NCBI GenBank assembly: GCA_001563335.1
Contig: LRSL01000053.1
Coordinates: forward strand, 1-19,554
Origin: Candidatus Thorarchaeota archaeon SMTZ1-45
Lineage (GTDB): Archaea; Asgardarchaeota; Thorarchaeia; Thorarchaeales; Thorarchaeaceae
Length of the DNA stretch: 19,554 bases
Direction: 5' to 3'
This document shows positions 1,527 to 16,044 of this stretch, piece by piece (the first letter of the stretch is position 1; each line of letters opens with the position of its first letter). The translations under genes were made by a program, and so were the position numbers. A model generated the notes under the pieces. That model was given only the letters and a program-made list of their open reading frames with translations, did not search any database and was not told where the DNA came from.

Positions 1527-3026
1527 TTACCTCTTTCGGAAAATCACTGCAGCTACAATGATGCCCACTACCACTCCAACAACTCCGATTACAGCAACAG
1601 TCAAGATATCGAATCCTACAGGAGGTGGTGTTGTTGTACCTGTTGGAGTTGTTGTTGTTGTCGTTGTTGGTGGTGGTGCAAATCCACCTGGCACATATGG
1701 TTCACCATTCCAGAGGGCCGCAATTGGAGGTGCGACCGTGTTACGGTCAAGGGTTTCAACCAATTCAGCAATGACCTTATTATATGTTTCAGATGCTGGA
1801 TTAGTATCATTCACAGCTTTTGCGATGTACATCTCTGCAAGTCCTTGATGATCATCGGGTCTCAGGTATGTTGGTCCTTTTGGACAATTTATCGTGACAC
1901 CGCTTTCTAGATAATTGATCATCAAATCAGTATCAAGATCTGAGATCTCATTCGTGACATCTACCAAGAATTGTGCAGTTGCAAACGCACTTGCTGTGAA
2001 AAGCTCAGGCACTCGATAGGTTTGCAAGAATATATTGTAGTTCGGCCTAATGTTTCTGGTTACATGTTCAGCCACCATCCAGTCGTTAACTGCATTGTTT
2101 GGCAGTTTGTAACCATATAGACAGAGTCCAGTAGAATTGATGTAGGTTGCTGGAGGTGTCAAACTTGCTTCAATGAGGTTCATAGAAAGGATATCAATAC
2201 ATGCTCCAGCGATTTCCATATCTGATGCGACATCATAACTTGTCAAATCTGTATACAGATATGAGAAGTCTCCAGCCCAAATGATGAACAAATACTCAAT
2301 ATCCGAAACTGCATCGACAGCCTGAAGATTTAGTATATAGGGCGAGAAGTCAGTTGCAGACAAGGGTGCATACTGAATACTGAGTACTGATCCTCCTCTG
2401 TCTTCTATCAAAGTCTTCATTGATTCAACGCCATCATATCCAAAGGAATAATCAGCAGCAAGAAAAGCAAATCTAGAATAGTTTAGATAGTTTTCATCCA
2501 TGGCGTATGTAACGCCTGCATATGCATCATGCCAGTTATTTCTGGCGATGCGGAAAATGTATGGATTGAAATTTTCTGCGGTTATTGAAGAAGCAGCAGC
2601 TGGTGTTACGAAAAATAGCTTCTCATAATCTTCAGCAATACCTGCTAGCGTTGCTGCAACTGCACTAGAAGTACCTCCAACAAGAATGTCAATTCCATCC
2701 GTTTCGATTGCATTTATTGCTTGGGTTCTTGCATAACTCGTACTTCCTTGCGTATCATAGTAATGAATCTCATAAGGCCGCCCGGCTTCCGTCATATTTT
2801 CATTATCATATCCCATCATCGTCGTTGCATATACCAATCCCAACTCAAACCCTTGTTTCGTCCAAGGTCCGTAAAACCATAGACCCAGCCCGACTGTTTC
2901 AGGTGTGAAAACTCCAATCTTAATTGGCTCCTGCGCAACAGCTGGCTTCACAAAGAAAACAGGTATGAAGATGGATACTAGGAGTAGCAACGAAAGAGAT
3001 AGAGATATTGTTCTCAGTTTTTTCAT
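1527..3026 (-). CDS. livK: ABC transporter substrate-binding protein, LivK/branched-chain amino acid (type 1 periplasmic-binding) family, C-terminally anchored
   Basis: Signal peptide MKKLR plus hydrophobic stretch plus PAVA. Family motifs IKIGV, YDTQG, ILVGGTSSAVA, NPYIFR, ADYSFG and DFSPYI. C-terminal PT linker, TM helix and RKR. SD GGGAGG at 3034-3039. The ligand is not determined. Confidence 0.9.
   Translation of the reverse strand: MKKLRTISLSLSLLLLVSIFIPVFFVKPAVAQEPIKIGVFTPETVGLGLWFYGPWTKQGFELGLVYATTMMGYDNENMTEAGRPYEIHYYDTQGSTSYARTQAINAIETDGIDILVGGTSSAVAATLAGIAEDYEKLFFVTPAAASSITAENFNPYIFRIARNNWHDAYAGVTYAMDENYLNYSRFAFLAADYSFGYDGVESMKTLIEDRGGSVLSIQYAPLSATDFSPYILNLQAVDAVSDIEYLFIIWAGDFSYLYTDLTSYDVASDMEIAGACIDILSMNLIEASLTPPATYINSTGLCLYGYKLPNNAVNDWMVAEHVTRNIRPNYNIFLQTYRVPELFTASAFATAQFLVDVTNEISDLDTDLMINYLESGVTINCPKGPTYLRPDDHQGLAEMYIAKAVNDTNPASETYNKVIAELVETLDRNTVAPPIAALWNGEPYVPGGFAPPPTTTTTTTPTGTTTPPPVGFDILTVAVIGVVGVVVGIIVAAVIFRKR
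1622..1677 (-). repeat. Low-complexity (ACA/CCA)n codon repeat encoding a Pro/Thr linker
   Basis: Runs of GTT and GGT on the plus strand encode PPPTTTTTTTPTGTTTPPP within the binding protein. Confidence 0.8.
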
Positions 3027-3040
3027 CTTCTATCCTCCCA

Positions 3041-3097
3041 TAACAGTATCTATCCTGTAGCAATACTGTTAATGTTGGAACATAGACTGTTCTATGT
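3041..3097. promoter_or_regulatory. Two adjacent inverted repeats in the leader of the substrate-binding protein gene
   Basis: TAACAGTAT (3041-3049) / ATACTGTTA (3063-3071), and ACATAGA-CTGT-TCTATGT (3080-3097). A regulatory function is inferred. Confidence 0.45.
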
Positions 3098-3149
3098 CTA
3101 TCCATTTAAGGAGGGGTCCCGGCTATATATCTCTTAAGGAAACCCAGAC

Positions 3150-3953
3150 CTAAGATGCAAGTTGTTGTTGTTTACGTAGGAAACCCAGAACTATACTGTT
3201 AAACTCCTCAGGTCTTTCGAATGTTACAGCATGTCCTGAATCACGAACAATGATCATTTCTGAATTGGGTAAGTTATCATGAATCAAGCTTGAATATGGG
3301 TAAGCTGGTTTCAAGATGTCTTTCTCACCAGCAATGACACAAGTAGGTGTTTTGATTCGTTTCAATTTGTCTGTGATATCTAGCTCAAGAAAAGCATCCA
3401 TCAATCTCACAAGTGGAGGATAATCTAATAGTGTATAACGAACCTTAGCTTGTTCCAAAATAGTAGTATTTTCTCGAATGAAGGTGTCTCCAAAATTCAA
3501 AGGCACAGTGGCGTGATAGAATAAGTCCGGATTACCAAGTTCGCATACATATCTCCAAAGTTGAGCCAACTCATAAAGCACAGGTCCCAAATACGAAACA
3601 CCACTGCAAACAACCAAGCTCTTCAACATCTCAGGATACTTCATTGCAAAGACCAGGCCGAGTTCAGCTCCATAGCTGATTCCCACATGGTGCACTCTAG
3701 AAATTCCAAGCTCTTCGAGAAGTGCTTTTTGATCCTCAGCATGGATATCGAATGTATAGGGTTCTTTTGGTTTCTCACTCTGTCCCTGTCCGCGCATATC
3801 GTATAGAATAACTTGGTACTCTTTGGAAAATACCGGTACTTGATTGATCCATCCTAGCGTATTCGAAAAGACACCATTTCCAAAGATTACAGGTTCACCT
3901 TCTCCATGTATTTCATAATAGATATTCACACCATTCACATTACTAATTGGCAT
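3150..3953 (-). CDS. Alpha/beta-fold serine hydrolase (enol-lactonase/esterase-like)
   Basis: IYYEIHGEG, YDMRGQGQS, nucleophile elbow GISYG, acid GEKD and catalytic His SGH. Confidence 0.9.
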   Translation of the reverse strand: MPISNVNGVNIYYEIHGEGEPVIFGNGVFSNTLGWINQVPVFSKEYQVILYDMRGQGQSEKPKEPYTFDIHAEDQKALLEELGISRVHHVGISYGAELGLVFAMKYPEMLKSLVVCSGVSYLGPVLYELAQLWRYVCELGNPDLFYHATVPLNFGDTFIRENTTILEQAKVRYTLLDYPPLVRLMDAFLELDITDKLKRIKTPTCVIAGEKDILKPAYPYSSLIHDNLPNSEMIIVRDSGHAVTFERPEEFNSIVLGFLRKQQQLAS

Positions 3954-3955
3954 GG

Positions 3956-5506
3956 TTATTTCCCTTCTTGTCCAAAATCTTGCCGCAATTTTCGTTTTAG
4001 GATCTTCCCTGCTCCAGAGATATAAGGAGTAAAATTATCCACATAGGCTACGGATTTGGGAATCTTGAATTTTGCCAATTTATCAGTGCAGAAGTTGAGT
4101 ATCTCCTCCTCTGATGCTTCTTGCTCTGGTTTCAATACAACAACAGCCCGTCCTACCTCTCCCCATTTTGGATCAGGTACACCAATAACTTGCACCTCTG
4201 CAATCTTGGGATGCTGTTCCAAGACCTTCTCAATCTCCCTTGGATAGACATTCTCACCCCCAGAGATGAACATATCCTTCACTCTATCAACCACATAGTA
4301 ATACCCCTCATCGTCAAAATACACCATATCCCCTGTCTTAAACCAACCATCATCATCTAAAAGATCCTTATTCAACTCTGGTCGATTCCAGTAACCTATG
4401 GTCACTGTGGGGCCCTTGAATAGAAGTTCGCCAACCTCATTTGCGCTGCAATCCTTTCCGGTTTCAGAATCAACCACTTTTGCGTCTATGAAAAAGTTCG
4501 GTGTACCAATGCTGCCAATCTTTCGCTCAGCATCCCATGGATCGAGGGCAAAACATCCTGGTCCAACTTCTGTCATTCCAAATCCTTGTTTGAATTTGAC
4601 TCCATGTCTTTCTCGAAATGTCTTGATAACGTCCAATGGTAGAGGCTCTCCCCCAGATGTCAAGAATCGAACATTACTAAAATCAATTGTACCAAAATCT
4701 TGATGATTCATCAACATTCGGTATTGTGTGGGGACCGCGAAGAAAAAGTTGGGTTTCTCCTTGTTAATCACTCTTATCAACGTGTCAAGATCCCATCTCT
4801 TCATTTGGATTACCTTTCCTCCGAGAATGAAAAGTGGAATTGCATAAACATACAATCCTCCTACATGAAACAGAGGTAGGTGATTGATGTAGACATCTCC
4901 TGGAAGGATGTCTCTAATTGTACTGAGTGTATTGAATGCAACTTGTTTGTAGGTAATCATTGCACCTTTTGGCAAGCCAGTGGTTCCCCCAGTAAACACA
5001 ATGCCCATTGGATCCTCATATGAGAGGTCTACTGCATTGGGAGGAGTCGAATTTGTATTTTTCATCAACTCTTCATAGACCAAGGAACCTTCCACATGTG
5101 CTCCTTTTGTGGTCAATGAAACCCAATGATCAACAGCGACTTCCTGTATAAGCTCCAGTGTAACATTAGCCATGTCTGCATCATAGAATATCATAGAGGG
5201 AGTAAGATCCTCGATCAAATCAGCTAACTCTCGAGCTACTAATCGCCAGTTGAGAGGACTAAAAATACCCCCGCATTTCTGGCACCCGAAAAATACTTCC
5301 CAGTACTCCAAGCTGTTCTGAGCGAGAATACACAGCCGATCTCCCTTTTGAAAATCCATTTCTTGTTGTAAAACGTTTGCAATCCTATTCGCTTGTTTGT
5401 TGAATGCTCTGTATGTATACCTTCTACCGGTTTCTACATCCACTAGAGCTTCAACCTCTGGCGAGAAAACGTCCCTCTTGGACAAATAATCGAACTGATT
5501 AACCAT
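3956..5506 (-). CDS. Acyl-CoA synthetase (long-chain fatty acid-CoA ligase/MenE-like ANL family), paralog A
   Basis: P-loop FTGGTTGLPKG, LPLFHVGG, GFGMTE, WFKTGD, DRVKDMFISGGENVYP and GKILK. SD-like GAGGGA upstream. Confidence 0.93.
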   Translation of the reverse strand: MVNQFDYLSKRDVFSPEVEALVDVETGRRYTYRAFNKQANRIANVLQQEMDFQKGDRLCILAQNSLEYWEVFFGCQKCGGIFSPLNWRLVARELADLIEDLTPSMIFYDADMANVTLELIQEVAVDHWVSLTTKGAHVEGSLVYEELMKNTNSTPPNAVDLSYEDPMGIVFTGGTTGLPKGAMITYKQVAFNTLSTIRDILPGDVYINHLPLFHVGGLYVYAIPLFILGGKVIQMKRWDLDTLIRVINKEKPNFFFAVPTQYRMLMNHQDFGTIDFSNVRFLTSGGEPLPLDVIKTFRERHGVKFKQGFGMTEVGPGCFALDPWDAERKIGSIGTPNFFIDAKVVDSETGKDCSANEVGELLFKGPTVTIGYWNRPELNKDLLDDDGWFKTGDMVYFDDEGYYYVVDRVKDMFISGGENVYPREIEKVLEQHPKIAEVQVIGVPDPKWGEVGRAVVVLKPEQEASEEEILNFCTDKLAKFKIPKSVAYVDNFTPYISGAGKILKRKLRQDFGQEGK

Positions 5507-5578
5507 TTGGTATTCCCTCGATAGGAACTCTACTTTTCCTCAATCGAGAATATTAAGCACAACCAAAATAAAAATCCC

Positions 5579-6589
5579 TTACCACCATTTCAATACAGCG
5601 GCTGCCATGTTGAAACCTCCCCCAGATGAACAAAGTGCAATGTTCTCACCGTTTCCTTTCCCAGGTGGTGGAAGTTTCCCTTGTTCAATAGCATCGTACA
5701 TAGCCAATGCAATGCAAGCAGATCCAGTATATCCCCACTTATCCATTACATTATGTGTCTTTTCAAGAGGCATGTCTAGTTCTTTCATTACAGCTTCAAT
5801 AGTTCGTAGGTTTACCTGCGTGAAGAAAATCCAGTCAATATCCTCGATAGACAAATTTGCCTTTGAAACACATTCTCTTGTTAGAATTGGCCAGTGTTGA
5901 AGGTTTGTATCTGCAGGAAATCGCTTTCGAAAAGATAGATGGTGTCTATTATTCTGAATCGCTTCAATTGAGGGTGGTTCAGCTGTTCCTCCGACGAAGA
6001 CTCCCAAATGGTCATGAAAAGAGCCATCTGCAATCAGTTTTGAAGTAATGAATCCCTCTTTATCCTCACTTGCTTGCAGTATCATTGCTCCTGCAGCATC
6101 TGCAAACAAAGTACAAGTGTAGTGATCAGTCCAATCAACAAATTTGGTCATTCCGTATGCTCCGATAACCAAAACCGTATTAATGTCCGAATCTGTTCTT
6201 ATGTATCGGGAGGCTATGTCTAAAGAAGTAACTAGTCCTGCACAAGCACAATTGACATCAAAGGTACCCGCATTCTTGGCACCGATTTTGTGTTGAACCA
6301 CTACTGATGTCGCTGGAGAAAGATAGTCTGGTGTATCAGTACTCAAAATTATTAGGTCAAGCTCCTCAGCATCGACACTTGCTTTTTCCAATGCTTCACG
6401 ACTTGCATTTCCTGCAAGATCAGATGTAACCTCATCTTCAGCCATGATATGTCGTTGTCTAATACCAACATTCTCAACTAACCAATTGGCAGTACCTGGA
6501 CGATGAAGCATCTGTTCAATGTCTTCATTTGTCAACATCTTCTCAGGAATGTATATCCCCAGACCTGTGGCCACAGCTGAGCGAACCAT
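5579..6589 (-). CDS. fabH: 3-oxoacyl-ACP synthase III (FabH)-like enzyme with non-canonical active site, paralog A
   Basis: GIYIPEKMLTNED, GIRQRH, STDTPDYLSPATS, DVNCACAG, LFADAAGA and SGGG. The HQAN and GNT motifs are replaced by TQVN and GYT. Start set at ATG 6589 (track TTG 6619). Confidence 0.88.
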   Translation of the reverse strand: MVRSAVATGLGIYIPEKMLTNEDIEQMLHRPGTANWLVENVGIRQRHIMAEDEVTSDLAGNASREALEKASVDAEELDLIILSTDTPDYLSPATSVVVQHKIGAKNAGTFDVNCACAGLVTSLDIASRYIRTDSDINTVLVIGAYGMTKFVDWTDHYTCTLFADAAGAMILQASEDKEGFITSKLIADGSFHDHLGVFVGGTAEPPSIEAIQNNRHHLSFRKRFPADTNLQHWPILTRECVSKANLSIEDIDWIFFTQVNLRTIEAVMKELDMPLEKTHNVMDKWGYTGSACIALAMYDAIEQGKLPPPGKGNGENIALCSSGGGFNMAAAVLKWW

Positions 6590-6669: not shown

Positions 6670-7509
6670 TCATCCTTTCTCCACTTCATCTATAAAATTC
6701 ATTACCTCTTGATTGAATTCTTCATACTTTTCAATGATGACAAAATGTGATGCGCCTTCTATAATTTTTAATTTTGAATTTGGTATACGCTCCGCTAGCA
6801 GTTCTCCGTTCTTCGTTGGTACTGCACGATCATTATCTCCGTGTAGGATAAGTGTTGGTGCAGTTATCCTGCTTAATTCCAATTCGGAATCAAATTTACT
6901 TGTTGCTGTGCTTTGGTGCACTTGCGCGTATAACGGTGTAGGATGTTTTTCTGCCCATACATCAATTTGTTCTATTACTGAACTGTTTTCCTGGAGGAAT
7001 TGTGGACTAAAGGTAGCTCTATAACGCATCTCTCGGGCTTGTTCTACCGAGATTGTTTCTGTAGGTAAAGCAATTAGCAAAGCCATCGTCTTATCATCCA
7101 TCGGGACATAATTAGATCCTCCAAAATGAGTGGAAGTTAAAATCAAACTTCGAACTTTTTCAGGATATGAAATGGCAATCTGCTGTGCAATCAATCCTCC
7201 CATTGAGATTCCTAAGATATGCGTGGTTTCGATCTCTAGTGCATCCATCAGACCAACTGTATCAGCAGCCATCATCTCTATAGTGTATGGATAATCCGGT
7301 TTGGAGCTTTTTCCTGCTCCACGATTATCAAAGACAACACATCTGTATTTTTCCTTGAAGGTAGGGATTTGTCGAAACCAAATCCAGCGATAGCTTGCCC
7401 AGCCCCCAATTAGTACAAGGGGCGGAGTGTCACTCAGTCCATGAATCTCGTAATAGATATCGATATTTTCTACAGAGAAATCGGTGTTTCCTATCCTTGC
7501 GTATGGCAT
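6670..7509 (-). CDS. Alpha/beta-fold serine hydrolase (enol-lactonase/esterase-like)
   Basis: IYYEIHG, FDNRGAGKS, GISMGG, HGDND and ASH. Start set at ATG 7509, 5 nt after the livM stop, because the track start overlaps livM. Confidence 0.9.
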   Translation of the reverse strand: MPYARIGNTDFSVENIDIYYEIHGLSDTPPLVLIGGWASYRWIWFRQIPTFKEKYRCVVFDNRGAGKSSKPDYPYTIEMMAADTVGLMDALEIETTHILGISMGGLIAQQIAISYPEKVRSLILTSTHFGGSNYVPMDDKTMALLIALPTETISVEQAREMRYRATFSPQFLQENSSVIEQIDVWAEKHPTPLYAQVHQSTATSKFDSELELSRITAPTLILHGDNDRAVPTKNGELLAERIPNSKLKIIEGASHFVIIEKYEEFNQEVMNFIDEVEKG

Positions 7510-7514
7510 ACCAA

Positions 7515-10362: not shown

Positions 10363-11081
10363 TAAATGCTCACCCCCAGGTATTGTGCAACAAGTGCCTT
10401 GTCTTCTATTAACTCATCCATGTTATTACCTTCATGAACGATTTTTCCATTATCGAAAATGTAGAAATTATCACCCAGCTTGGACACTGCCCGGAAGTTC
10501 TGTTCGACCATTAATATTGTAGCATATTCCTTTAGCCTATCTAAAGAGTTGATAAGGTTCTTAGCTAAGAGAGGACTCAAACCCTCAGTAGGTTCATCTA
10601 TTAACAACAGCTCATTTTCATTCATCAATGCACGAGCAACTGCCAGCATTTGCTGTTGCCCACCTGATAGAGTTCCAGCTCTCTGTTTCATAAATCCCCT
10701 CATGTCAGGAAACAGTTCAAAGATGATATCCAATCGATATTGCATGTCATCTCGAGAACTCCCCTTCCTCATGGACACAATTAGATTCTGTTCAACTGAA
10801 AGTGATCCAAATATCCTTCTCGTATCAGGTACATATCCAATACCTTTGTTGACAATTTTATGAGTTGGTAGATTTGTTATCTCTTCACCCTTGAATACAA
10901 TACTCCCTTCTTTTGGAGGATATATCCCGAGTATTGATTTCATTGTAGTAGTTTTCCCAGAGCCATTCCGGCCTAGTAATAGAGTGACCTCTCCTTTTGG
11001 TACGACCAATGAGATTCCTTGCAGGATGTAAAAGGAACCAATATACACATGAGTGTTTTGTATTTCAAGCAAGTTTTTCAT
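10362..11081 (-). CDS. livF: Liv-type ABC transporter ATP-binding protein (LivF)
   Basis: Walker A GRNGSGKTT, signature LSGGQQQMLA, Walker B LLLIDEP and VEQN. Start set at ATG 11081 (track GTG 11090). Confidence 0.93.
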   Translation of the reverse strand: MKNLLEIQNTHVYIGSFYILQGISLVVPKGEVTLLLGRNGSGKTTTMKSILGIYPPKEGSIVFKGEEITNLPTHKIVNKGIGYVPDTRRIFGSLSVEQNLIVSMRKGSSRDDMQYRLDIIFELFPDMRGFMKQRAGTLSGGQQQMLAVARALMNENELLLIDEPTEGLSPLLAKNLINSLDRLKEYATILMVEQNFRAVSKLGDNFYIFDNGKIVHEGNNMDELIEDKALVAQYLGVSI

Positions 11082-11850
11082 CTGTACCACCTAGATAGGC
11101 TGTCAATACTTCTTCATTCTCTTGGATCTCCTTCGGAGAACCTTTAGCAATCATCTTTCCTTCTGATAGGACAAAAATCTCCTCGCTGAGGTTCATTACA
11201 ATGTCCATCTTATGTTCAACCACCAATAGTGTAAGTTGATCACCATACGATTCTTTGACTCGTAAAATGGCATCAATGACTTCTGGAATCTCTTCAATAG
11301 CCATTCCAGCCGCTGGTTCATCAAGTAAAAGGAGTCGCGGCTCAGTAGCGAGAGCCATTGCGATTTCAAGCTTTCTCTGTTCAGCATGTGGTATTAAAGC
11401 CGCCGGGATATAGAGTCGCATAGGATCAAGACCCACAATTGAAGCAATCTCCAAGACTTTCTCATGAAAATTGGTATATGTGCCTGCTTTCTTCAACATC
11501 CCGAGGAAGTTCACTCTTGCACCACTGCAACCTTGTGCTGCCAACCGAATATTTTCGAATGTTGTCTGATATGGAAAAATGTTCGTGATCTGGTAAGACC
11601 GTGAAATTCCTAGTCGTGTGCGTTGATGCATTGAAGTGCGAGTTATATTTCGACCTTCAAAGAATATATGTCCTGAAGAGGGTGGGAAGACTCCAGTAAT
11701 TAGATTAAAGAAAGTCGTTTTTCCTGAACCATTTGGGCCTATGATTGCTTTTATTGAACCCTTTTCCACATCGAGGCTTACATCATTAACAGCAATCAGC
11801 CCGCCAAAACTCTTAGTTAAAGCACTCGTGCTTAGGATTAAATCATTCAT
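11065..11850 (-). CDS. livG: Liv-type ABC transporter ATP-binding protein (LivG)
   Basis: KSFGGLIAVNDV, Walker A GPNGSGKTT, LLLLDEPAAG, VEHKM and C-terminal AYLG. The start is ATG 11850 or TTG 11859. Confidence 0.93.
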   Translation of the reverse strand: MNDLILSTSALTKSFGGLIAVNDVSLDVEKGSIKAIIGPNGSGKTTFFNLITGVFPPSSGHIFFEGRNITRTSMHQRTRLGISRSYQITNIFPYQTTFENIRLAAQGCSGARVNFLGMLKKAGTYTNFHEKVLEIASIVGLDPMRLYIPAALIPHAEQRKLEIAMALATEPRLLLLDEPAAGMAIEEIPEVIDAILRVKESYGDQLTLLVVEHKMDIVMNLSEEIFVLSEGKMIAKGSPKEIQENEEVLTAYLGGTDEKLA

Positions 11851-11859
11851 TGAGGACAA

Positions 11860-12052
11860 TTCGATTTCCTTCTATATTATATATTCAAAATTGATTATCC
11901 TCAGTGAAGTCGATTCAGGCGAATAATATATCTTTTGGATTTAATTGGAGCTATTCTATTGTTTCTATGTAAAAGAAAAGAGAAAGAGAGGTATCTTCAG
12001 GAAGACTAATACTCAACATTATCTTCACTCTGAATCAATAGGAGACTTTGCA
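11860..12052. promoter_or_regulatory. Divergent promoter region of the two operon arms
   Basis: Only gap between the oppositely oriented gene strings. AT-rich with TATA-like runs (TATATTATATATT near 11873-11885, AATAATATAT near 11922-11931). Individual elements are not resolved. Confidence 0.55.
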
Positions 12053-13582
12053 ATGGACCTTAAAGATTGGTCTTGGATAGGCGATTGGACAGGAAGAAGA
12101 GCCCTTTTGACTCCAAAAAAGGAGGCAATTTTTGACAACATCCAGAAAAAGAGATACACATTCGAAGAAATAGATAGACGAGCGAATCAGGTATCTAGGT
12201 TTTTTCTTGACTCAGGAGTACAAAAGGGGGACCGAATAGGAGTCTATTCTAAGAATAGGTTTGACTTTCTTGACATCCTCTTTGCTTGTGGGAAGATTGG
12301 AGCTATACTCACTCCGTTCAACACTCGCCTTACTGCACCTGAACTTGAATACCTAATAGAAAAGACAGACCCTGCGATGTTTCTTTATGACCCCAACTTG
12401 GACTCTCAATTTGAGGATTTACGTCCCTTTCTCGAGAAGAAGCATGTTATTGTCATGGGTGAGAAGACAATTGATGCCGATTCCAACATGCATTCATTAA
12501 TGACTAAAAAATCAGCTAGTGCAATCGAACGACCACCCCTCACACTTGATGATTCTTATTTAATCGTCTTTACTGGAGGTACTACTGGATTACCCAAGGG
12601 AGCTATCCTCTCACATGGATTGGTATTCTGGAACTCAGTCAACACAATTGTTTCATGGGGTCTCAGACCAGATGATATCCAACCACTTCTCTTTCCACTC
12701 TTTCATACTGGTGGAATCAATGTTCTCTTAATTCCTTTCTTTCATCTCGGAGCAAAGTCTATCATCATGGGAGATTTTGGTGCAGATGAAACTTTGAGGG
12801 TAATTGAAGATGAGAAATGTTCCATTGTCATTGCTGTTCCAACAATGTTCAACATGATATCTGAATCTCCAAAGTTTTCAAAGACCAAGTTTGACAGCGT
12901 TCGTGTCTTCATCAGTGGTGGTGCTCCCTGTCCAGTAGCAATTATGGAGAAGTATTGGGAACGTGGCAAGATACTCAAGATGGGTTATGGTCTTACTGAG
13001 GTTGGTCCAAACAATTTCTTTCTTCCTGAGAGTGAGGTTAAACGAAAGCCCTCGTCTGTTGGTTTCCCTGTCTTTCATTGTGATATGAGAGTAATTGATG
13101 ATAATGGTAATGATGTACCAACAGGCAATGTCGGTGAGTTGATACTCCGAGGTCCTCACATATTCTCTGGTTATTGGGATGAACCTGAAGAAACAGCAAA
13201 AACGATCGAACCTGATGGATGGGTCCATACAGGTGATCTCGCTGTGATAGATGATGAAGGATTCTATTTTATTACAGGTCGAAAGAAAGACATGTTCATC
13301 TCTGGGGGTGAGAATGTATATCCCACTGAAATCGAGGAACTTCTATACAAACACCCTTCAATATTGGAAGCTGCTGTAGTTGGAGTACCACATGAGAAAT
13401 GGGGTGAGGTTGGGAAGGCAGTCATCGTGTTGAAACCTGGTATGAGTCTCACTGAAGAACAGATTCTTGAATATCTTGATGGAAAGCTTGCTCGATATAA
13501 AATCCCGAAACACTACGAATTTAGAGATGAATTACCAAAGAGTGCAGCTGGGAAAATACTGAAACGTGAATTATCAGAATAG
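12053..13582 (+). CDS. Acyl-CoA synthetase (long-chain fatty acid-CoA ligase/MenE-like ANL family), paralog B
   Basis: FTGGTTGLPKG, PLFHTGG, GYGLTE, WVHTGD, GRKKDMFISGGENVYP and LPKSAAGKILK. Start set at ATG 12053 after SD AGGAG (12040-12044). Confidence 0.93.
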   Translation: MDLKDWSWIGDWTGRRALLTPKKEAIFDNIQKKRYTFEEIDRRANQVSRFFLDSGVQKGDRIGVYSKNRFDFLDILFACGKIGAILTPFNTRLTAPELEYLIEKTDPAMFLYDPNLDSQFEDLRPFLEKKHVIVMGEKTIDADSNMHSLMTKKSASAIERPPLTLDDSYLIVFTGGTTGLPKGAILSHGLVFWNSVNTIVSWGLRPDDIQPLLFPLFHTGGINVLLIPFFHLGAKSIIMGDFGADETLRVIEDEKCSIVIAVPTMFNMISESPKFSKTKFDSVRVFISGGAPCPVAIMEKYWERGKILKMGYGLTEVGPNNFFLPESEVKRKPSSVGFPVFHCDMRVIDDNGNDVPTGNVGELILRGPHIFSGYWDEPEETAKTIEPDGWVHTGDLAVIDDEGFYFITGRKKDMFISGGENVYPTEIEELLYKHPSILEAAVVGVPHEKWGEVGKAVIVLKPGMSLTEEQILEYLDGKLARYKIPKHYEFRDELPKSAAGKILKRELSE

Positions 13583-13595
13583 ATGAGGTTGATTA

Positions 13596-14624
13596 ATGAT
13601 GATAAAGAAATCTATAGGAATTGAAGCCATCGGTACTTACATCCCAAAAGAACGTCATACTGCAGAGTATATCTCCAGCAAGTCTGGGACCCCTGTTGAG
13701 ATTATCAAGTCAAAGATGGGCATGATTAGTAAAGCAGTACCAGGAAAAGATGACCACACCGTTGCTATGGGAGTAAAGGCTGCTAAGATAGCAATTGAAA
13801 GGGCAGGTATTGATCCTGCAAAAGACATCGATCTTGTGATTTGGGCTGGTGAGGTATATGCTGAACATCCAATGCAGACCTATGCTATTAAATTCCAGGG
13901 TGAGATTGGTGCAACAAAGGCATGGGCTTTTGATGTCAACCAGAGATGTGGTACTATTGTTGTTGCTATGATGCTAGTAAAAGCGCTCATGCAAACTTAT
14001 GGATATAAACGCGTCATTATCGGAAGTGGTTATCGGAATTCAGACCTAATCGACTATGGGAACATACGAACGCGATTCATGCATGACTTGGCAGCCAGTG
14101 GCGTTGCCATGATTCTTCGTGCAGATTATGACAGAAACATCGTTTTGGAGGGGAGTGTTATCTCTGATGGTCAGTTCTCTGAGGATGTCTATGTCCCAGC
14201 TGGTGGAACCGTCATGCCAATTACATGTGAAGCGATTGAAAAGGGTCTTACATATCTAGATGTTTCTGATCCTGAAGGTCTCAAACAGCGTTTGGATAAG
14301 TTATCAATGAAGAACTTCATTGCTGTCGTGGATGAGTCTCTCAAACAGAGTGGATATAGTCGAAAAGACATTGACTATCTTGGACTTTTAAGAATGAAAA
14401 GAAGCGCTTTCGAATATGTGGCAAATGAGCTTGGCGTGGATCCTTATGAACAATCTACGTATTTCGAAGAGTATGGTCATATGGGTCAAAATGATGCAAT
14501 TGTTTCTCTCGAAGAAGGTCTAAAAAGTGGAAAGATAAAGGATGGAGACCTCGTTGTTCTCACTGCAGCAGGAATTGGCTGGTCTTGGAATGCAATGACC
14601 ATAAAATGGGGCAAGGAGAAGTGA
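13596..14624 (+). CDS. 3-oxoacyl-ACP synthase III-like enzyme, divergent subfamily, paralog B
   Basis: IGTYIP, AFDVNQRCGT (catalytic Cys), YGHMGQND and KDGDLVVLTAAGIG. SD GAGGT at 13585-13589. Confidence 0.87.
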   Translation: MMIKKSIGIEAIGTYIPKERHTAEYISSKSGTPVEIIKSKMGMISKAVPGKDDHTVAMGVKAAKIAIERAGIDPAKDIDLVIWAGEVYAEHPMQTYAIKFQGEIGATKAWAFDVNQRCGTIVVAMMLVKALMQTYGYKRVIIGSGYRNSDLIDYGNIRTRFMHDLAASGVAMILRADYDRNIVLEGSVISDGQFSEDVYVPAGGTVMPITCEAIEKGLTYLDVSDPEGLKQRLDKLSMKNFIAVVDESLKQSGYSRKDIDYLGLLRMKRSAFEYVANELGVDPYEQSTYFEEYGHMGQNDAIVSLEEGLKSGKIKDGDLVVLTAAGIGWSWNAMTIKWGKEK

Positions 14625-14629
14625 AGTAA

Positions 14630-15052
14630 ATGGAAGTAACAAAGTATTCGGATATCAAAATGGGACAATCCGCAGAAGTTGTACACACTATTACTGAAGA
14701 GGATATTCAGGTCTTTGGTGATCTTAGTGGAGATTATAATCCGTTACACTTCGATGAAGACTGGGCAAAGAAGACTATGTTTGGAGGTCGAATTGCTCAT
14801 GGGATTCTAACAGCTTCTTTCATCAGCACTGCAATTGGTATGCATCTACCTGGCCCCGGGACTATCTATATGAGTCAGAGTATGCGTTTTCTTGGTCCTG
14901 TGAGGATTGGAGACACAATCACAACCAGAGTAGAAGTCGTACTTTTGAATGATGAGAAAGAACGAATAACCTTGAAAACTACTTGCACAAATCAGGATAG
15001 CAAGATAGTCATGGATGGAGAGGCACTAGTCACATTAATGAAGATGGACTGA
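14630..15052 (+). CDS. MaoC/PhaJ-type hotdog (R)-specific enoyl-CoA hydratase/dehydratase
   Basis: Hydratase-2 motif FGDLSGDYNPLH with Asp and His intact, plus FGGRIAHG, LPGPG and FLGPVRIGD. Confidence 0.92.
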   Translation: MEVTKYSDIKMGQSAEVVHTITEEDIQVFGDLSGDYNPLHFDEDWAKKTMFGGRIAHGILTASFISTAIGMHLPGPGTIYMSQSMRFLGPVRIGDTITTRVEVVLLNDEKERITLKTTCTNQDSKIVMDGEALVTLMKMD

Positions 15053-15135
15053 TGACTCCTATGGATGATGAAGAAAAAGCATCCACCATCAGAAAGATAA
15101 GGCTTGATGAATACTGGAAAAAACACACGAGGTAG
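15052..15135 (+). CDS. Putative 27-aa small protein MTPMDDEEKASTIRKIRLDEYWKKHTR
   Basis: Translated by hand. The ATG overlaps the MaoC stop (TGATG), and the ORF fills the gap and ends 6 nt before the next start. An alternative ATG lies at 15061. Confidence 0.5.
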   Translation: MTPMDDEEKASTIRKIRLDEYWKKHTR

Positions 15136-15141
15136 AGGAAA

Positions 15142-16044
15142 GTGGCGGAGCATAAAGAAGATGTACTCCCTGTCATTCATCTGCGGATTCGAGTTTCCAG
15201 ACCAGTGGAGGAAGTCTGGGAAAAATTCTTAGATCCTGTCATTATGCTTCAATGGCTTGGTGATGAGATTAGCGCAGATGTTCGAGTCGGTGGTACTATT
15301 AGATTTCTTGGTCCACACGCTCCTACCACACCTGAAATCGCCAACTATTGGGATATCAAAGAAGTCAAATTTCAGAAAGTCCTTCTTCTTAGTTGGAGAA
15401 TTATGGGTGTTGACACACTTCTAGTCATTAGATTCAATCCCATTGGACCTGGCACAATGATACAAGTGAACCATGGGGCTGTGCCAGTTTCTGCTCGTAA
15501 TTATCATCTTCCTGAGCATTGGAATCTCTTGCTTGCCAATTTCAAGGCTGCAGTTGAGCTTGGAGTTCCAGCAATTCGTTTCAACTACTCAGATTACCAT
15601 CCCTTACGCATTACTCGCTATGATCCAGTCGATGTCCGTCTTAGTGTCATTTGTAAGACCCCTCCCTCACTTCCATTCGATGTATGGACAAATCCTGAGA
15701 AGTTGAAGCATTTCATTCGAGCTGACCATCCTGTGGTTGACCGTCAGTATGCTGGAATCTATACTTGGTGGGCTGAAGGTCAAGGACCTATTGTGTTCAA
15801 AAAGTTGATACCTGACCGTGAGCTAGAGTTCTCATGGGTTCATGGCGATGAACCAGAGACCTTAGTCAATGTACGTTTTGAAGAGGTAAATGATCATACG
15901 TTAGTTACTCTCCACCATCATGATTTCCAATCACCAGAGGCAGTCGTTGGTTATGACATTGGTTGGTCTGGCATCCTCGCTGAATTGAAACTTGTGTGTG
16001 AATTGGGAGAGTCAGGAATCGAGAGAATCAGCGATTGGGGATAA
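15142..16044 (+). CDS. Tandem SRPBCC (AHSA1/START-like) domain protein
   Basis: Two repeats: PVEEVWEKFLDP..W...TMIQVNHG...HWNLLLANFKAAVELG and PSLPFDVWTNPE...TLVTLHHH...GWSGILAELKLVCELG. GTG start after GAGG. Confidence 0.82.
   Translation: MAEHKEDVLPVIHLRIRVSRPVEEVWEKFLDPVIMLQWLGDEISADVRVGGTIRFLGPHAPTTPEIANYWDIKEVKFQKVLLLSWRIMGVDTLLVIRFNPIGPGTMIQVNHGAVPVSARNYHLPEHWNLLLANFKAAVELGVPAIRFNYSDYHPLRITRYDPVDVRLSVICKTPPSLPFDVWTNPEKLKHFIRADHPVVDRQYAGIYTWWAEGQGPIVFKKLIPDRELEFSWVHGDEPETLVNVRFEEVNDHTLVTLHHHDFQSPEAVVGYDIGWSGILAELKLVCELGESGIERISDWG

What the first reader, a model, noticed from the sequence alone, without database searches (positions are those of the whole stretch)
1527..16044. Candidate undescribed ACP-independent acyl-processing system: Liv-type importer plus paired KAS III, paired CoA ligases, paired hydrolases, MaoC and SRPBCC
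Seen: two divergent, tightly packed arms, each carrying one acyl-CoA ligase next to one KAS III. Enzymes are interleaved between the permeases and the binding protein. There is no ACP, malonyl transacylase, ketoreductase, acyl-CoA dehydrogenase or thiolase in the window, and both KAS III lack the His/Asn pair. Known: archaea generally lack ACP-based fatty-acid synthesis. KAS III homologs can perform non-decarboxylative head-to-head condensation (OleA; heterodimeric LstA/LstB) or ester/amide formation (CerJ type), and Liv-family importers also carry non-amino-acid carboxylates. Inference: the island imports an acyl compound or ester, hydrolyses it, activates two different acids to CoA thioesters, and joins or cleaves them with the KAS pair, with MaoC handling an (R)-3-hydroxyacyl/enoyl step. 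I recall similar uncharacterised clusters in bacteria but have not verified this. In an Asgard-like archaeon it would bear on fatty-acyl chemistry and the lipid divide.
Basis: partly seen in the sequence, partly recalled or inferred. Interest (0 to 1): 0.85.

Follow-up and report, generated by a model that had tools for sequence, protein, structure and literature searches.

The report
Acid-import island with unusual ketosynthases
A Thorarchaeote carries a conserved but dispensable gene island that imports an organic acid or ester, links it to coenzyme A and passes it to two atypical ketosynthase-like enzymes of unknown reaction; the same kit recurs on bacterial-type contigs, so it says little about archaeal membrane lipids.

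Summary
Window 1527-16044 encodes a Liv/HAAT-type ABC importer, two alpha/beta hydrolases, two acyl-CoA ligases, two KAS III-like proteins, a PhaJ-type MaoC hydratase and a double SRPBCC protein, in two divergent arms. The host is a Thorarchaeote.

Corrections:
- The arms are separable modules: KAS-B occurs without KAS-A in 66 of 96 Asgard genomes, and the two lie 100 and 333 kb apart on two single-contig genomes.
- KAS-A has Cys with Thr and Tyr in place of His and Asn. KAS-B belongs to NCBIfam NF005308, where Asn is replaced by an invariant His. A His sits one residue after the canonical His column and is Arg in the Thor clade.
- The island is accessory: five same-genus genomes that are at least 90% complete lack both KAS genes.
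- The same kit (KAS-B type, ligase, then hydrolase, MaoC, SDR, TetR and importers) recurs on bacterial-type metagenome contigs.
- No ACP, FabD or biotin carboxylase was found in carrier genomes, so the chemistry is CoA-based and probably malonyl-independent.

Best reading (0.4): an inducible uptake and breakdown pathway in which the KAS-like enzymes act as thiolase-like C-C cleaving enzymes. Condensation, acyl transfer and Ole-like readings remain open. I found no description of it in the literature searched. Relevance to the lipid divide looks weak.

The parts
1527..3026 (-). Substrate-binding protein of the ABC importer (Peripla_BP_6), with a signal peptide, a C-terminal Thr/Pro linker and a membrane anchor
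   Evidence: Pfam PF13458 E 1.1e-37. Translation. Urea and LIV equivalog models score far below their cut-offs.
3150..3953 (-). ABH1, a cytoplasmic alpha/beta-fold serine hydrolase (esterase or lactonase type)
   Evidence: PF00561 E 1.4e-25. GISYG elbow and no signal peptide. Best PDB hit is the metagenomic esterase MGS-M2 (4q3l) at E 2e-44. PcaD and RutD models score below cut-off.
3956..5506 (-). LigA, an acyl-CoA ligase of the ANL family
   Evidence: PF00501 E 4.3e-85 plus PF13193. NF004837 scores 441.8 bits against a cut-off of 476. Best PDB hits are 8weu and 8wev (fatty-acyl / feruloyl-CoA synthetase) at E 1.6e-94, then FadD13. 40% identical to LigB.
5579..6589 (-). KAS-A, a FabH-derived KAS III-like protein with Cys kept, His replaced by Thr and Asn replaced by Tyr
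   Evidence: PF08545 and PF08541. NF006829 scores 263.6 against 249, TIGR00747 scores 236.6 against 292.1. Alignment to FabH. Cys, Thr, Gln, Asn and Tyr are invariant in 121 of 121 sequences. AF2 pLDDT 94.3; Foldseek top hits are FabH structures at 28-35% identity.
6670..7509 (-). ABH2, a second cytoplasmic alpha/beta-fold serine hydrolase
   Evidence: PF00561 E 3.4e-35. GISMG elbow. Best PDB hit is Est1 (6eb3, 8v16) at E 5e-45. PcaD-like at 144.8 bits against 255.85. 31% identical to ABH1. The start at the internal Met is my inference from where the PDB alignment begins.
7515..11859 (-). Membrane and ATPase parts of the HAAT/Liv-type ABC importer: LivM-like 7515-9257, LivH-like 9250-10362, LivF 10362-11090, LivG 11065-11859
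   Evidence: PF02653 twice, PF00005 twice, and PF12399 on LivG. Urea and LIV equivalog models score below cut-off.
11860..12053 (.). Divergent intergenic region with two AT-rich, TATA-like boxes that form an 8-nt inverted pair
   Evidence: Sequence. Inverted repeat I3, 11873-11880 and 11923-11930. The promoter role is inferred and was not tested.
12054..13582 (+). LigB, a second acyl-CoA ligase
   Evidence: PF00501 E 3.3e-80. Best NCBIfam hit NF005307 at 485.4 bits, below its cut-off of 748. Best PDB hit 8wev at E 1.2e-107. ATG at 12054 is preceded by a purine-rich stretch. Orthologs are 508-511 aa long.
13596..14624 (+). KAS-B, a KAS III-like protein of NCBIfam NF005308 (PRK06840): Cys118, Arg266 one residue after the canonical His column, His295 at the Asn column
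   Evidence: NF005308 scores 414.5 bits against a cut-off of 315. Alignments. In 121 Asgard sequences, Cys and His295 are invariant, and position 266 is R in 78, H in 40, K in 2 and S in 1. AF2 pLDDT 96.7; Foldseek top hits are FabH structures at 20-23% identity.
14630..15052 (+). MaoC/PhaJ-type (R)-specific enoyl-CoA hydratase, 5 nt after KAS-B
   Evidence: PF01575 E 3.2e-27. The GDYNPLH stretch carries the Asp and His. Best PDB hits are PhaJ 5cpg at E 1.5e-32, AF1124, human HTD2 and PhaJ 1iq6.
15142..16044 (+). Protein with two AHSA1-type SRPBCC domains (hydrophobic-ligand-binding fold)
   Evidence: PF08327 in two stretches, E 2.5e-27. Weak PDB hits to CalU16 and AHSA1-like proteins. Syntenic in 9 of the 35 genome loci by tblastn. 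An SRPBCC protein (PF10604) also sits in the bacterial-type locus L105.
16055..16804 (-). Polytopic membrane protein with no family match, syntenic with the SRPBCC gene in Thorarchaeota. Its membership of the island is uncertain.
   Evidence: Translation. No Pfam hit at E up to 5 other than noise. Follows SRPBCC in L001, L002, L003, L008, L025, L026, L028 and L033.

Best explanation
**What it is.** An accessory island of a Thorarchaeote that takes up a compound, hydrolyses it, activates it with CoA and cuts it. It is built from two modules that can exist apart.

- **Module A** (minus strand, one operon): a Liv/HAAT ABC importer with a membrane-anchored extracellular binding protein brings in an organic acid or its ester or lactone. 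Two cytoplasmic serine hydrolases free the acid. LigA makes the CoA thioester, and KAS-A acts on it.
- **Module B** (plus strand): LigB activates an acid. The PhaJ-type MaoC interconverts 2-enoyl-CoA and (R)-3-hydroxyacyl-CoA, and KAS-B acts on the thioester. A double SRPBCC protein may hold a hydrophobic substrate or product.

**How it most likely works.**
- Both KAS-like proteins keep the nucleophilic Cys, so they would form an acyl-Cys intermediate from an acyl-CoA. This is inferred.
- Carrier genomes show no ACP, FabD or biotin carboxylase, and the decarboxylation pair is gone. The C-C chemistry is therefore CoA-based and non-decarboxylative, that is, thiolase-like.
- The direction I think most likely is catabolic: thiolytic cleavage of a 3-oxoacyl-CoA. 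That substrate would come from the imported ester or lactone (hydrolase route), or from an unsaturated or 3-hydroxy acid (MaoC route, with a dehydrogenase encoded elsewhere). The products would feed acyl-CoA and acetyl-CoA into the cell's own beta-oxidation enzymes.

**Shown:** gene content, conservation, separability of the modules, residue patterns, and the lack of ACP, FabD and biotin carboxylase. **Inferred:** the substrate class, acyl-Cys catalysis, and the direction of the reaction.
For: **Importer and cytoplasmic enzymes:**

**The activated species is a CoA thioester.** Both ligases are closest to CoA ligases. One bacterial-type locus (L090) has a CoA-transferase where the others have a ligase.

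**No ACP-based or malonyl-based partners found.**
- No PP-binding domain in G000 or in 5 further carriers, four of them 96-99% complete and one a single-contig genome scored 86%.
- No Acyl_transf_1 (FabD) in G000.
- No Biotin_carb_C in 6 of 6 carriers.

**Residues are conserved, not decayed**.

**Accessory and patchy.** NF005308 is over its cut-off in 91 of 301 Asgard genomes and in 14 of 24 other genomes of the same genus. Five same-genus genomes that are at least 90% complete lack both KAS genes.

**Bacterial-type relatives look catabolic.** Of 46 loci, a ligase lies within 6 kb in 35, a hydrolase in 20, Liv genes in 18 and MaoC in 12. Among the 20 loci scanned by Pfam, 8 have TetR, 5 an SDR, and 3 an SSF importer.

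**The variable partners fit one intermediate.** Hydrolase, SDR and (R)-hydratase are the enzymes that would each deliver a 3-oxoacyl-CoA or (R)-3-hydroxyacyl-CoA from a different precursor.

**Downstream enzymes exist elsewhere in G000:** six thiolases and two 3-hydroxyacyl-CoA dehydrogenases.

**Regulation.** PAS sensor kinases flank module B in L017, L025 and L026.
Against:
- The same partner set (SDR, (R)-dehydratase, thioesterase-like hydrolase, and FMN reductase in 3 loci) reads equally well forwards, as an elongation cycle.
- The window has no dehydrogenase to turn the MaoC product into a 3-oxoacyl-CoA.
- The cell already has six ordinary thiolases, so it is not explained why a KAS III fold would be needed.
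- ABC import plus AMP-forming ligases is costly for an anaerobe that would only ferment the product.
- Malonyl-CoA could still come from imported malonate, because the ligases are also related to malonyl-CoA synthetase (4fuq, 246-268 bits). A carboxyltransferase is present too.
- L025 carries a weak Condensation/PapA-like acyltransferase hit near module B, which hints at ester building.
Confidence: 0.4

Rival explanations
1. Salvage and extension. The imported acid is activated, and the KAS-like enzymes condense it with a second CoA thioester. The second unit would be acetyl-CoA, added without decarboxylation, or malonyl-CoA made from imported malonate. Partner enzymes then process the 3-oxoacyl-CoA: a reductase encoded elsewhere, MaoC as dehydratase, and a hydrolase as thioesterase. 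The product would be an extended (R)-3-hydroxy or 2-enoyl acid, or a lipid-like ester.
For: - KAS III is a condensing fold.
- In family NF005308, His replaces Asn, and most members have a second His one residue after the canonical column (37 of 66 rows). From recall, this resembles the Cys-His-His triad of elongating ketosynthases.
- A Glu (E86) is invariant in Asgard orthologs (120 of 121). It lies next to the column of the own-genome HMG-CoA synthase Glu (hhalign probability 99%).
- An SDR in 5 of 20 bacterial-type loci and an FMN reductase in 3 of 20 would complete an elongation cycle.
- Near module B in Thorarchaeota sit SRPBCC, a polytopic membrane protein, an MFS transporter and a weak PapA/Condensation-like hit.
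- MaoC-type dehydratases do serve archaeal fatty acid synthesis (passages read in bioRxiv 10.1101/2024.07.05.601840).
Against: - No biotin carboxylase in 6 of 6 carriers, and no ACP.
- Non-decarboxylative condensation is thermodynamically uphill (textbook knowledge).
- The Glu is present at that column or the next in only 20 of 38 core-family representatives.
- In the Thor clade the first His is replaced by Arg.
- Importers and TetR regulators dominate the bacterial-type contexts.
- Distribution is patchy within the genus.
Confidence: 0.25
2. Acyl transfer. One or both KAS-like proteins load the acyl group from CoA onto Cys and pass it to an oxygen or nitrogen acceptor, as CerJ- or ChlB6-type KAS III acyltransferases do. 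The island would then remodel or build esters or amides rather than make or break C-C bonds. KAS-A is the likelier candidate, having lost both His and Asn.
For: - KAS-A keeps Cys and the Gln-x-Asn stretch but has Thr and Tyr at the two columns needed for decarboxylation and enolate handling, invariant in 121 of 121 sequences.
- From recall, FabH His or Asn mutants keep transacylation but lose condensation.
- Two esterases flank KAS-A.
- A weak PapA/Condensation-like hit lies in L025.
Against: - No acceptor-making gene is conserved in the island.
- From recall, the known KAS III acyltransferases keep a His.
- No sequence or fold match to them ranked above FabH.
Confidence: 0.12
3. Obligate KAS-A/KAS-B heterodimer that joins two different acyl-CoAs head to head (OleA or LstA/LstB style). 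The AMP-binding proteins and hydrolases would play OleC- and OleB-like roles, in beta-lactone or olefin formation.
For: - The island holds the same three superfamilies as OleA, OleB and OleC. An SDR (OleD-like superfamily) joins them in 5 of 20 bacterial-type loci.
- KAS-A almost never occurs without KAS-B in a genome: 30 of 34 have both, and the other 4 are 74-83% complete.
- One bacterial-type contig (L045) carries both KAS types in a single cluster.
Against: - KAS-B stands alone in 66 of 96 Asgard genomes and in 44 of 46 bacterial-type loci.
- The two genes lie 100 and 333 kb apart on two single-contig genomes, and on separate contigs in 13 more genomes.
- From recall, OleA needs His and Asn, and both are missing here.
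- OleA ranks only from 47th in Foldseek, at 15-17% identity.
- The ligases match CoA ligases at E 1e-94 to 1e-107, and a CoA-transferase replaces the ligase in L090.
- The link to importers does not fit a biosynthetic olefin pathway.
Confidence: 0.06
4. Ordinary FabH enzymes that start malonyl-ACP-dependent fatty acid synthesis, with ACP, FabD and the other Fab proteins encoded elsewhere.
For: - KAS-A passes the broad NF006829 subfamily model, 263.6 bits against a cut-off of 249.
- The fold is FabH-like.
Against: - The Cys-His-Asn triad is not met in either protein.
- TIGR00747 (fabH) is below its cut-off for both.
- No PP-binding domain in 6 of 6 carriers, no FabD in G000, and no biotin carboxylase in 6 of 6.
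Confidence: 0.02

Closest known systems
FabH (beta-ketoacyl-ACP synthase III)
   Same: - Same fold and the same nucleophilic Cys. Foldseek TM-scores are 0.84-0.91, with top hits 8vd9, 4ryb and 4dfe.
- KAS-A is 28-35% identical to FabH structures and is sister to FabH-like sequences in the tree.
   Different: - His and Asn are replaced: Thr and Tyr in KAS-A; Leu with Arg beside it, and His, in KAS-B.
- The host shows no ACP, FabD or biotin carboxylase.
- The genes sit with an importer, ligases and hydrolases, not with fab genes.
NCBIfam NF005308 (PRK06840, named '3-oxoacyl-ACP synthase'), an uncharacterised family
   Same: - KAS-B is a member by score, 414.5 bits against a cut-off of 315.
- Family members on bacterial-type contigs have the same neighbours: ligase, hydrolase, MaoC and Liv genes.
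   Different: - In the Thor clade the family's usual His (in the HMKR stretch) is replaced by Arg: 78 of 121 Asgard sequences have R and 40 have H.
- The family name implies ACP, which these hosts lack.
- None of the 14 named control genomes has a member over the cut-off.
OleABCD and LstAB (head-to-head condensation, beta-lactone and olefin pathways)
   Same: - The same enzyme superfamilies occur side by side: KAS III-like, alpha/beta hydrolase and AMP-binding, plus an SDR in some bacterial-type loci.
- CoA thioester substrates and no ACP (recalled for Ole).
   Different: - The His/Asn pair that OleA needs (recalled) is absent.
- The AMP-binding proteins look like CoA ligases, and a CoA-transferase can replace them.
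- The KAS genes are separable.
- The island is linked to importers and TetR regulators.
- Structural similarity to OleA is low (rank 47 and below).
Thiolase-type beta-oxidative or retro-Claisen steps paired with MaoC hydratases (for example the steroid side-chain ChsH/Ltp2 system, recalled) and the archaeal KT/DUF35-ACR-MaoC fatty acid synthase (bioRxiv 10.1101/2024.07.05.601840; abstract and passages read)
   Same: - A thiolase-superfamily enzyme lies next to an (R)-specific MaoC hydratase.
- The enzymes act on CoA thioesters without ACP.
   Different: - Here the thiolase-superfamily member has a KAS III fold rather than a thiolase or SCP-x fold.
- The island has no DUF35 partner, ketoreductase or enoyl reductase.
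Liv-type uptake plus CoA ligase systems for aromatic and other carboxylates (such as the CouP/CouB type in Rhodopseudomonas, recalled)
   Same: - A HAAT-family binding protein and permeases are encoded with a CoA ligase.
- The ligases' best solved relative is deposited as a feruloyl-CoA synthetase (8wev).
   Different: - The binding protein is only distantly related to the solved aromatic-acid binders (4evs, 4ey3 and 4f06 at E about 1e-6; that these bind aromatic acids is recalled, not shown in the call).
- The island has no crotonase-type hydratase/lyase.
- The KAS III-like step has no counterpart in those pathways.

Membership tests
FabH (canonical KAS III) | Cys-His-Asn catalytic triad | tested here: not met
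   - KAS-A has Cys, Thr and Tyr. KAS-B has Cys, Leu (with Arg beside it) and His.
- The pattern is invariant in orthologs.
FabH (canonical KAS III) | Score over the curated fabH model cut-off | tested here: not met
   - TIGR00747: KAS-A 236.6 and KAS-B 118.3 bits, against a cut-off of 292.1.
- Only the broad NF006829 model is passed, and only by KAS-A (263.6 against 249).
FabH (canonical KAS III) | Malonyl-ACP partner system (ACP, FabD, malonyl-CoA supply) in the genome | tested here: not met
   - PF00550: 0 matches in G000 (87.7% complete) and 0 of 5 further carriers.
- PF00698: 0 matches in G000.
- PF02785: 0 of 6 carriers.
- Absence from incomplete genomes is not proof, but four of the carriers are 96-99% complete.
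NCBIfam NF005308 (PRK06840) | Whole-protein score over the curated cut-off | tested here: met
   KAS-B scores 414.5 bits against 315. The genome search gives the same result.
OleA / LstAB head-to-head condensing enzymes | Cys-His-Asn plus a Glu base; heterodimer for LstAB (features recalled) | tested here: not met
   - His and Asn are absent.
- KAS-A and KAS-B are separable.
- OleA structures rank 47th or lower at 15-17% identity.
- Whether they dimerise was not tested.
OleBCD partners | OleC-type beta-lactone synthetase and OleD reductase next to OleA | tested here: inconclusive
   - AMP-binding proteins are present, but their best matches are CoA ligases. A CoA-transferase replaces the ligase in L090.
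- The window has no SDR.
- No OleC-specific model was seen among the 25 best rows shown.
HMG-CoA synthase | Glu-Cys-His triad and family model score | tested here: not met
   - NF003274 scores 67.8 bits against a cut-off of 244.
- hhalign to the genome's own HMG-CoA synthase gives 99% probability, but Glu86 and Arg266 each fall one column away from its Glu and His.
Thiolase (PF00108/PF02803) | Family model score | tested here: not met
   KAS-A scores 22.5 bits on Thiolase_N against a cut-off of 26.4. KAS-B has no hit. The superfamily is shared, but the family is not.
HAAT (Liv-type) ABC importer | Peripla_BP_6 binding protein, two BPD_transp_2 permeases and two ATPases, one with the BCA_ABC_TP_C tail | tested here: met
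   All five components are present. The substrate-specific equivalogs (LivJ/K, LivH/M, Urt) are all far below cut-off, so the substrate is unknown.
PhaJ / hydratase-2 type (R)-specific enoyl-CoA hydratase | Single MaoC hot-dog domain with the catalytic Asp and His | tested here: met
   PF01575 scores 95 bits against 27. The GDYNPLH stretch is present. PhaJ 5cpg matches at E 1.5e-32. Activity was not tested.
[quoted passage not shown] | Ketothiolase with a DUF35 partner, plus ketoacyl-CoA reductase and enoyl-CoA reductase | tested here: not met
   Only the MaoC component is in the island. A thiolase, an HMG-CoA synthase and a third ORF whose Zn-ribbon-like CxxC pairs recall DUF35 (not scanned against any family) sit on contig C23, as in the mevalonate pathway.
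CerJ/ChlB6-type KAS III acyltransferases | Cys with His (and Asp), transferring to an O or N acceptor (recalled) | not tested
None appeared among the PDB hits listed.

The most novel reading that the evidence does not exclude
The two KAS III-like families found here are (a) NF005308 and (b) the FabH-derived Thr/Tyr family. In the most novel reading they are a so-far unrecognised class of ACP-independent and malonyl-independent C-C bond-forming enzymes. In Asgard archaea they would extend imported or endogenous acyl-CoAs into (R)-3-hydroxy or enoyl chains and lipid-like esters. The SRPBCC protein, the polytopic membrane protein and a PapA-like acyltransferase would handle the products. This would be a third route to fatty-acyl chains, beside FAS and the thiolase/DUF35 system, in the closest archaeal relatives of eukaryotes.
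Probability: 0.12. Interest if true: 0.85.

Novelty: new variant of a known kind. Interest (0 to 1): 0.55.

Why it matters
- **Two families with the wrong name.** Two well-conserved thiolase-superfamily families are annotated everywhere as '3-oxoacyl-ACP synthase III'. They lack the residues that name implies, and they occur in organisms with no ACP. The annotation is therefore almost certainly wrong and their chemistry is unknown.
- **A tractable route to the function.** The same gene kit recurs on bacterial-type metagenome contigs. If a cultivable carrier can be found, the function could be worked out in a bacterium and carried over to the archaea.
- **Metabolism of Asgard archaea.** The island may show which acids, esters or lactones sediment Thorarchaeota scavenge.
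- **Lipid divide.** The result is mostly cautionary. A FabH-like gene in an Asgard genome is not evidence of fatty acid synthesis. This one is accessory, patchy and set in an uptake context.

Tried and rejected
- **Literature.** Ten searches were made. They covered PRK06840, the PDB codes 3N0X/3NND and 8WEV/8WEU, FabH with Asgard, and KAS III with MaoC, ligase, hydrolase and ABC transporter. None returned a paper describing this cluster or either KAS family. The library holds only CC-licensed PMC papers and bioRxiv, and supplements were closed, so a description elsewhere is possible.
- **Fused forms:** no longer (600-2000 aa) relatives of KAS-B at E up to 1e-30. The tool itself calls this weak evidence.
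- **ESM Atlas:** returned only generically named KAS III clusters, mostly bacterial. No functional lead.
- **Expression:** no RNA holder listed. Four DNA holders from marine sediment or seawater metagenomes, one of which may be the source.
- **Fold search:** both models simply return FabH. No closer functional neighbour emerged. Model coordinates are not returned, so the geometry of Arg266, His295 and Glu86 around Cys118 could not be checked.
- **HMG-CoA-synthase-like Glu.** E86 is invariant in Asgard orthologs. However, a Glu sits at that column or the next in only 20 of 38 core-family representatives, and hhalign places it one column off. I keep it as a hint only.
- **PHA link.** No class III PHA synthase model match in G000. 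The hydrolases' PHA-depolymerase model scores are below cut-off.
- **Biotin/pimelate reading (BioZ, BioH, BioW analogy).** BioZ ranks 10th to 12th in Foldseek and bioH scores 83 bits against a cut-off of 207. I judged it unlikely, because an ABC importer and two ligases are out of scale for a cofactor pathway.
- **Complex prediction for KAS-A with KAS-B:** not run. All KAS III proteins dimerise through the same interface, so a pass could not separate a heterodimer from homodimers.
- **First metagenome scan:** It was repeated with 8 closer sequences.

Full report
**1. What is in the window**

The window is the whole of contig C53 of a 3.54-Mb, 119-contig genome scored 87.7% complete. ORF listing, Pfam and NCBIfam give two divergent arms.

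Minus arm, in order:
- LivG and LivF ATPases
- LivH-like permease and a 580-aa LivM-like permease
- alpha/beta hydrolase ABH2
- KAS-A
- AMP-ligase LigA
- alpha/beta hydrolase ABH1
- a Peripla_BP_6 binding protein

Plus arm, in order:
- AMP-ligase LigB
- KAS-B
- a 140-aa MaoC protein
- a protein with two AHSA1/SRPBCC domains

Gaps within each arm run from -61 to 123 nt.

The binding protein has a signal peptide and a C-terminal Thr/Pro-rich linker followed by a hydrophobic anchor. It is therefore extracellular, and the ABC system is an importer. Both hydrolases have a GxSxG elbow and no signal peptide.

The 194-bp divergent spacer, counted with LigB starting at the ATG at 12054, holds two AT-rich boxes that form an inverted pair.

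None of the 18 ORFs scanned carries an ACP, FabD, SDR, ACAD or thiolase domain above cut-off. GC content is even, 0.39-0.44.

The nearest loci, with KAS-B 84-91% identical, are titled Candidatus Thorarchaeota.

**2. The two KAS III-like proteins**

KAS-A:
- It aligns over its full length with solved FabH structures (E 8e-54). It keeps the Cys but reads Thr where FabH has His and Tyr where FabH has Asn.
- In the query plus its 120 best relatives, all above 66% identity and mostly labelled Thorarchaeota, Cys, Thr, Gln, Asn(247) and Tyr are invariant in 121 of 121.
- The same Thr/Tyr variant is found in two unnamed 50%-cluster representatives and in a high-GC metagenome contig, L045.

KAS-B:
- It passes the curated cut-off of NCBIfam NF005308/PRK06840 (414.5 bits against 315). 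It fails fabH TIGR00747 (118 against 292).
- Three alignments agree: HMMER to FabH, MAFFT and hhalign to the genome's own HMG-CoA synthase. All place Cys118 on the catalytic Cys, Leu265 on the canonical His column, and His295 on the canonical Asn column.
- The residue after the His column is His in most of the family (the HMKR stretch; 37 of the 66 rows that share His295). It is Arg in the Thor clade.
- Among 121 Asgard sequences, position 266 is R in 78, H in 40, K in 2 and S in 1. Cys118, Arg117, Met-Lys-Arg 267-269 and Gly-His 294-295 are invariant. Glu86 and Glu90 are present in 120 of 121, the remaining row having a gap.

Both proteins are therefore under purifying selection with non-canonical active sites. 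Neither is a decayed copy.

AF2 models are confident, with pLDDT 96.7 and 94.3. Foldseek returns FabH first. BioZ, PqsD, PqsC and OleA follow at lower identity. Model coordinates are not returned, so I could not check how the side chains are arranged.

**3. Host background**

| Feature searched | Result |
|---|---|
| PP-binding (ACP) domain | none in G000; none in 5 further Thor carriers (four 96-99% complete, one a single-contig genome scored 86%) |
| FabD domain | none in G000 |
| Biotin carboxylase domain | none in any of the 6 genomes |
| Carboxyltransferase | present |
| Thiolases | six |
| 3-hydroxyacyl-CoA dehydrogenases | two |
| HMG-CoA synthase operon | present |

The positive control genomes gave hits for each family searched. 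The two KAS-like proteins therefore cannot be working with malonyl-ACP. An internal malonyl-CoA supply is also doubtful.

**4. Conservation and modularity**

Genome loci (annotated by tblastn):
- Of the 35 loci found with KAS-B, 12 carry both KAS genes in the window's order.
- Among the 26 loci with at least 5 kb of flank, one of which is from a Chloroflexia bacterium, a ligase lies within 6 kb of KAS-B in 24, MaoC in 21, and Liv genes in 15.

Even sample of 301 Asgard genomes:
- NF005308 is over its cut-off in 91 genomes, and matches at E up to 1e-60 in 96. It occurs in several families: f1 41 of 76, f9 33 of 68, f12 12 of 19.
- KAS-A orthologs (E up to 1e-90) occur in 34 genomes, in only two families: f1 30 of 76 and f22 3 of 21.
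- Thirty of the 34 KAS-A genomes also have KAS-B. The other four are 74-83% complete.
- Sixty-six KAS-B genomes have no KAS-A.
- Where both are present, they lie within 12 kb in 15 genomes. In the other 15 they are on different contigs or far apart. On two single-contig genomes the distances are 100 kb and 333 kb.

In the 100-kb case, the KAS-A arm (LivM, ABH2, KAS-A, LigA, ABH1, binding protein) is intact on its own. The island is therefore two modules, each built on a ligase plus KAS pair. It is not one machine.

Within the window's own genus, 14 of 24 other genomes have KAS-B and 15 of 24 have KAS-A. Five genomes that are at least 90% complete have neither. The trait is accessory.

**5. The same kit outside Asgard**

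A Chloroflexia genome has a hydrolase, a KAS-B homologue (46% identity) and a ligase in a row.

A metagenome scan seeded with eight unnamed family representatives gave 80 loci whose KAS-B-type gene is 32-58% identical to the window's. Among the 46 loci with at least 5 kb of flank:

| Within 6 kb of the KAS-B-type gene | Loci (of 46) |
|---|---|
| Ligase | 35 |
| Alpha/beta hydrolase | 20 |
| At least two Liv components | 18 |
| MaoC | 12 |
| Second KAS | 2 |
| None of these | 6 |

The commonest combination is hydrolase plus ligase (12 loci).

I ran Pfam on 93 otherwise unassigned ORFs from 20 of these loci. This added:
- TetR regulators in 8 loci
- FabG-like SDRs in 5
- NADPH-FMN reductases in 3
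- SSF importers in 3
- MFS transporters in 3 (L040, L044, L080)
- lactonase-like NHL/SGL propeller proteins in 2
- an SRPBCC protein in 1
- a CoA-transferase in place of the ligase in 1 (L090)

L045 carries both KAS types in the order TetR, KAS-B, hydrolase, ligase, SDR, KAS-A, Liv.

In a quick maximum-likelihood tree with midpoint rooting and SH-aLRT support only, 19 Asgard KAS-B sequences form one clade (support 97). That clade is nested among the unnamed representatives. A second Asgard lineage (families f19 and f7) falls elsewhere. KAS-A groups with FabH-like sequences.

The nearest ESM Atlas clusters are 84-96% bacterial. One f7 locus lies next to a resolvase and a TnpB-like gene. Transfer from bacteria is therefore likely. 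It is not proven, because the representatives carry no names.

**6. How it most likely works**

Shown:
- uptake
- cytoplasmic hydrolases
- CoA-ligase-type activation, supported by the CoA-transferase swap in L090
- a PhaJ-type (R)-hydratase with its Asp/His stretch
- KAS-like proteins with a conserved Cys but no decarboxylation pair
- no ACP, FabD or biotin carboxylase in the hosts

Inferred:
- Each KAS forms an acyl-Cys intermediate from a CoA thioester and carries out non-decarboxylative, thiolase-like chemistry.
- Across loci, the variable partners are a hydrolase or lactonase, an SDR, and an (R)-hydratase. These are the enzymes that would deliver a 3-oxoacyl-CoA or (R)-3-hydroxyacyl-CoA from an ester or lactone, a 3-hydroxy acid, or a 2-enoic acid respectively.
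- Importers, TetR regulators or PAS kinases, and the patchy distribution all point the same way. I therefore favour a catabolic reading: thiolytic cleavage, with the products entering the cell's beta-oxidation and acetyl-CoA pool (0.4).

The same parts also read forwards as an elongation cycle (0.25). Supporting hints are the His-for-Asn change, Glu86 next to the HMG-CoA synthase Glu column, FMN reductases in three loci, and lipid-flavoured neighbours in Thorarchaeota.

Acyl transfer is possible, especially for KAS-A (0.12). An Ole/Lst-like heterodimer (0.06) and ordinary FabH (0.02) are much less likely, for the reasons given in the Rival explanations section.

The substrate is unknown:
- The ligases' best solved relatives are deposited as a feruloyl-CoA synthetase and a fatty-acyl-CoA synthase, followed by FadD13 and malonyl-CoA synthetase.

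**7. Comparison with the known, and novelty**

- KAS-B is a member of NF005308 by score. That family is named as an ACP synthase but is uncharacterised as far as my searches reach, and it is absent over the cut-off from all 14 named control genomes.
- Neither protein meets the FabH, OleA, HMG-CoA synthase or thiolase definitions that I could test.
- The transporter is a HAAT system of unknown specificity.
- The MaoC protein is PhaJ-like.
- Ten literature searches found no description of the cluster. The library is partial and supplements were closed.
- I rate it a new variant of a known kind: thiolase-superfamily enzymes with unusual active sites, in a CoA-dependent uptake pathway shared by Asgard archaea and bacterial-type contigs.

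**8. Verdict**

The ACP-independent, CoA-based reading stands. Three points are not supported:
- the paired-KAS or heterodimer idea
- the link to the lipid divide
- the idea that the island is specific to Asgard archaea

Interest is 0.55. It is a good target for enzyme discovery and a clear case of misannotation, but probably an accessory scavenging trait rather than a window on membrane evolution.

Noticed in passing
window 16055-16804 (-): A 249-aa polytopic membrane protein with no Pfam match. It carries a Gly/Asp...Gly-Arg...Ser-x-Glu-Gly-Ser stretch which, from recall only, resembles CTP-dependent polyprenol kinases or cytidylyltransferases. It follows the SRPBCC gene in eight Thorarchaeota loci.
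   Followed up: partly
window 17191-18117 (-) and 16865-17176 (-): An MtrH/MtgA-like corrinoid methyltransferase (PF02007 E 2.6e-71; NF002142 at 276.8 bits against a cut-off of 287), preceded by a 103-aa ORF with no family. The MtrH gene is syntenic in L002 and L003; the 103-aa ORF also recurs in L003, L028 and L033. It suggests methyl-group metabolism next to the island.
   Followed up: no
window 41-1441 (-) and 18308-19225 (+): A response regulator with GAF and PAS domains lies just downstream of the binding-protein gene. It is not conserved there in the locus I could check (L116). A PhzF-family isomerase lies at the other end of the window.
   Followed up: partly
L025 14678-16078 (-), Thorarchaeota chromosome CP070761: A 466-aa protein with weak Condensation/PapA_C (acyltransferase) hits, below cut-off for whole stretches. 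It sits between module B and the binding-protein, ABH1, LigA end of module A. An MFS transporter lies beside MaoC, and a histidine kinase is inserted between LigB and KAS-B.
   Followed up: no
L121 (Asgard family f12), L040, L044: A different recurrent context for KAS-B-type genes: two MFS transporters, KAS-B, a 637-642-aa GH5 glycosidase with the Glyco_hydro_5_C domain, a DinB-like protein, then a ligase and a hydrolase on the other strand. This hints at a glycoside-borne or ester-borne substrate.
   Followed up: no
one search match table (for example G106, G073, G043, G067, G052 of family f12, and several of f9): Many KAS-B matches in two Asgard families are flagged with one in-frame TAA or TAG, although the open frame is full length. 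This could be a boundary effect or stop-codon recoding, which has been reported for some Asgard lineages (PMC9723677, search listing only).
   Followed up: no
L120 4995-6630 (Asgard family f7): A resolvase fragment and a Cas12f1/TnpB-like ORF lie directly upstream of a bacterial-type KAS-B (about 500 bits to NF005308) with its ligase and hydrolase. This suggests a mobile-element context for a second acquisition.
   Followed up: no
L076 8984-10837 and L091 10180-12063: NHL-repeat/SGL (gluconolactonase- or arylesterase-like) propeller proteins of about 620 aa sit in or beside the ligase, MaoC, KAS-B operon in two bacterial-type loci. This fits a lactone or ester substrate.
   Followed up: no
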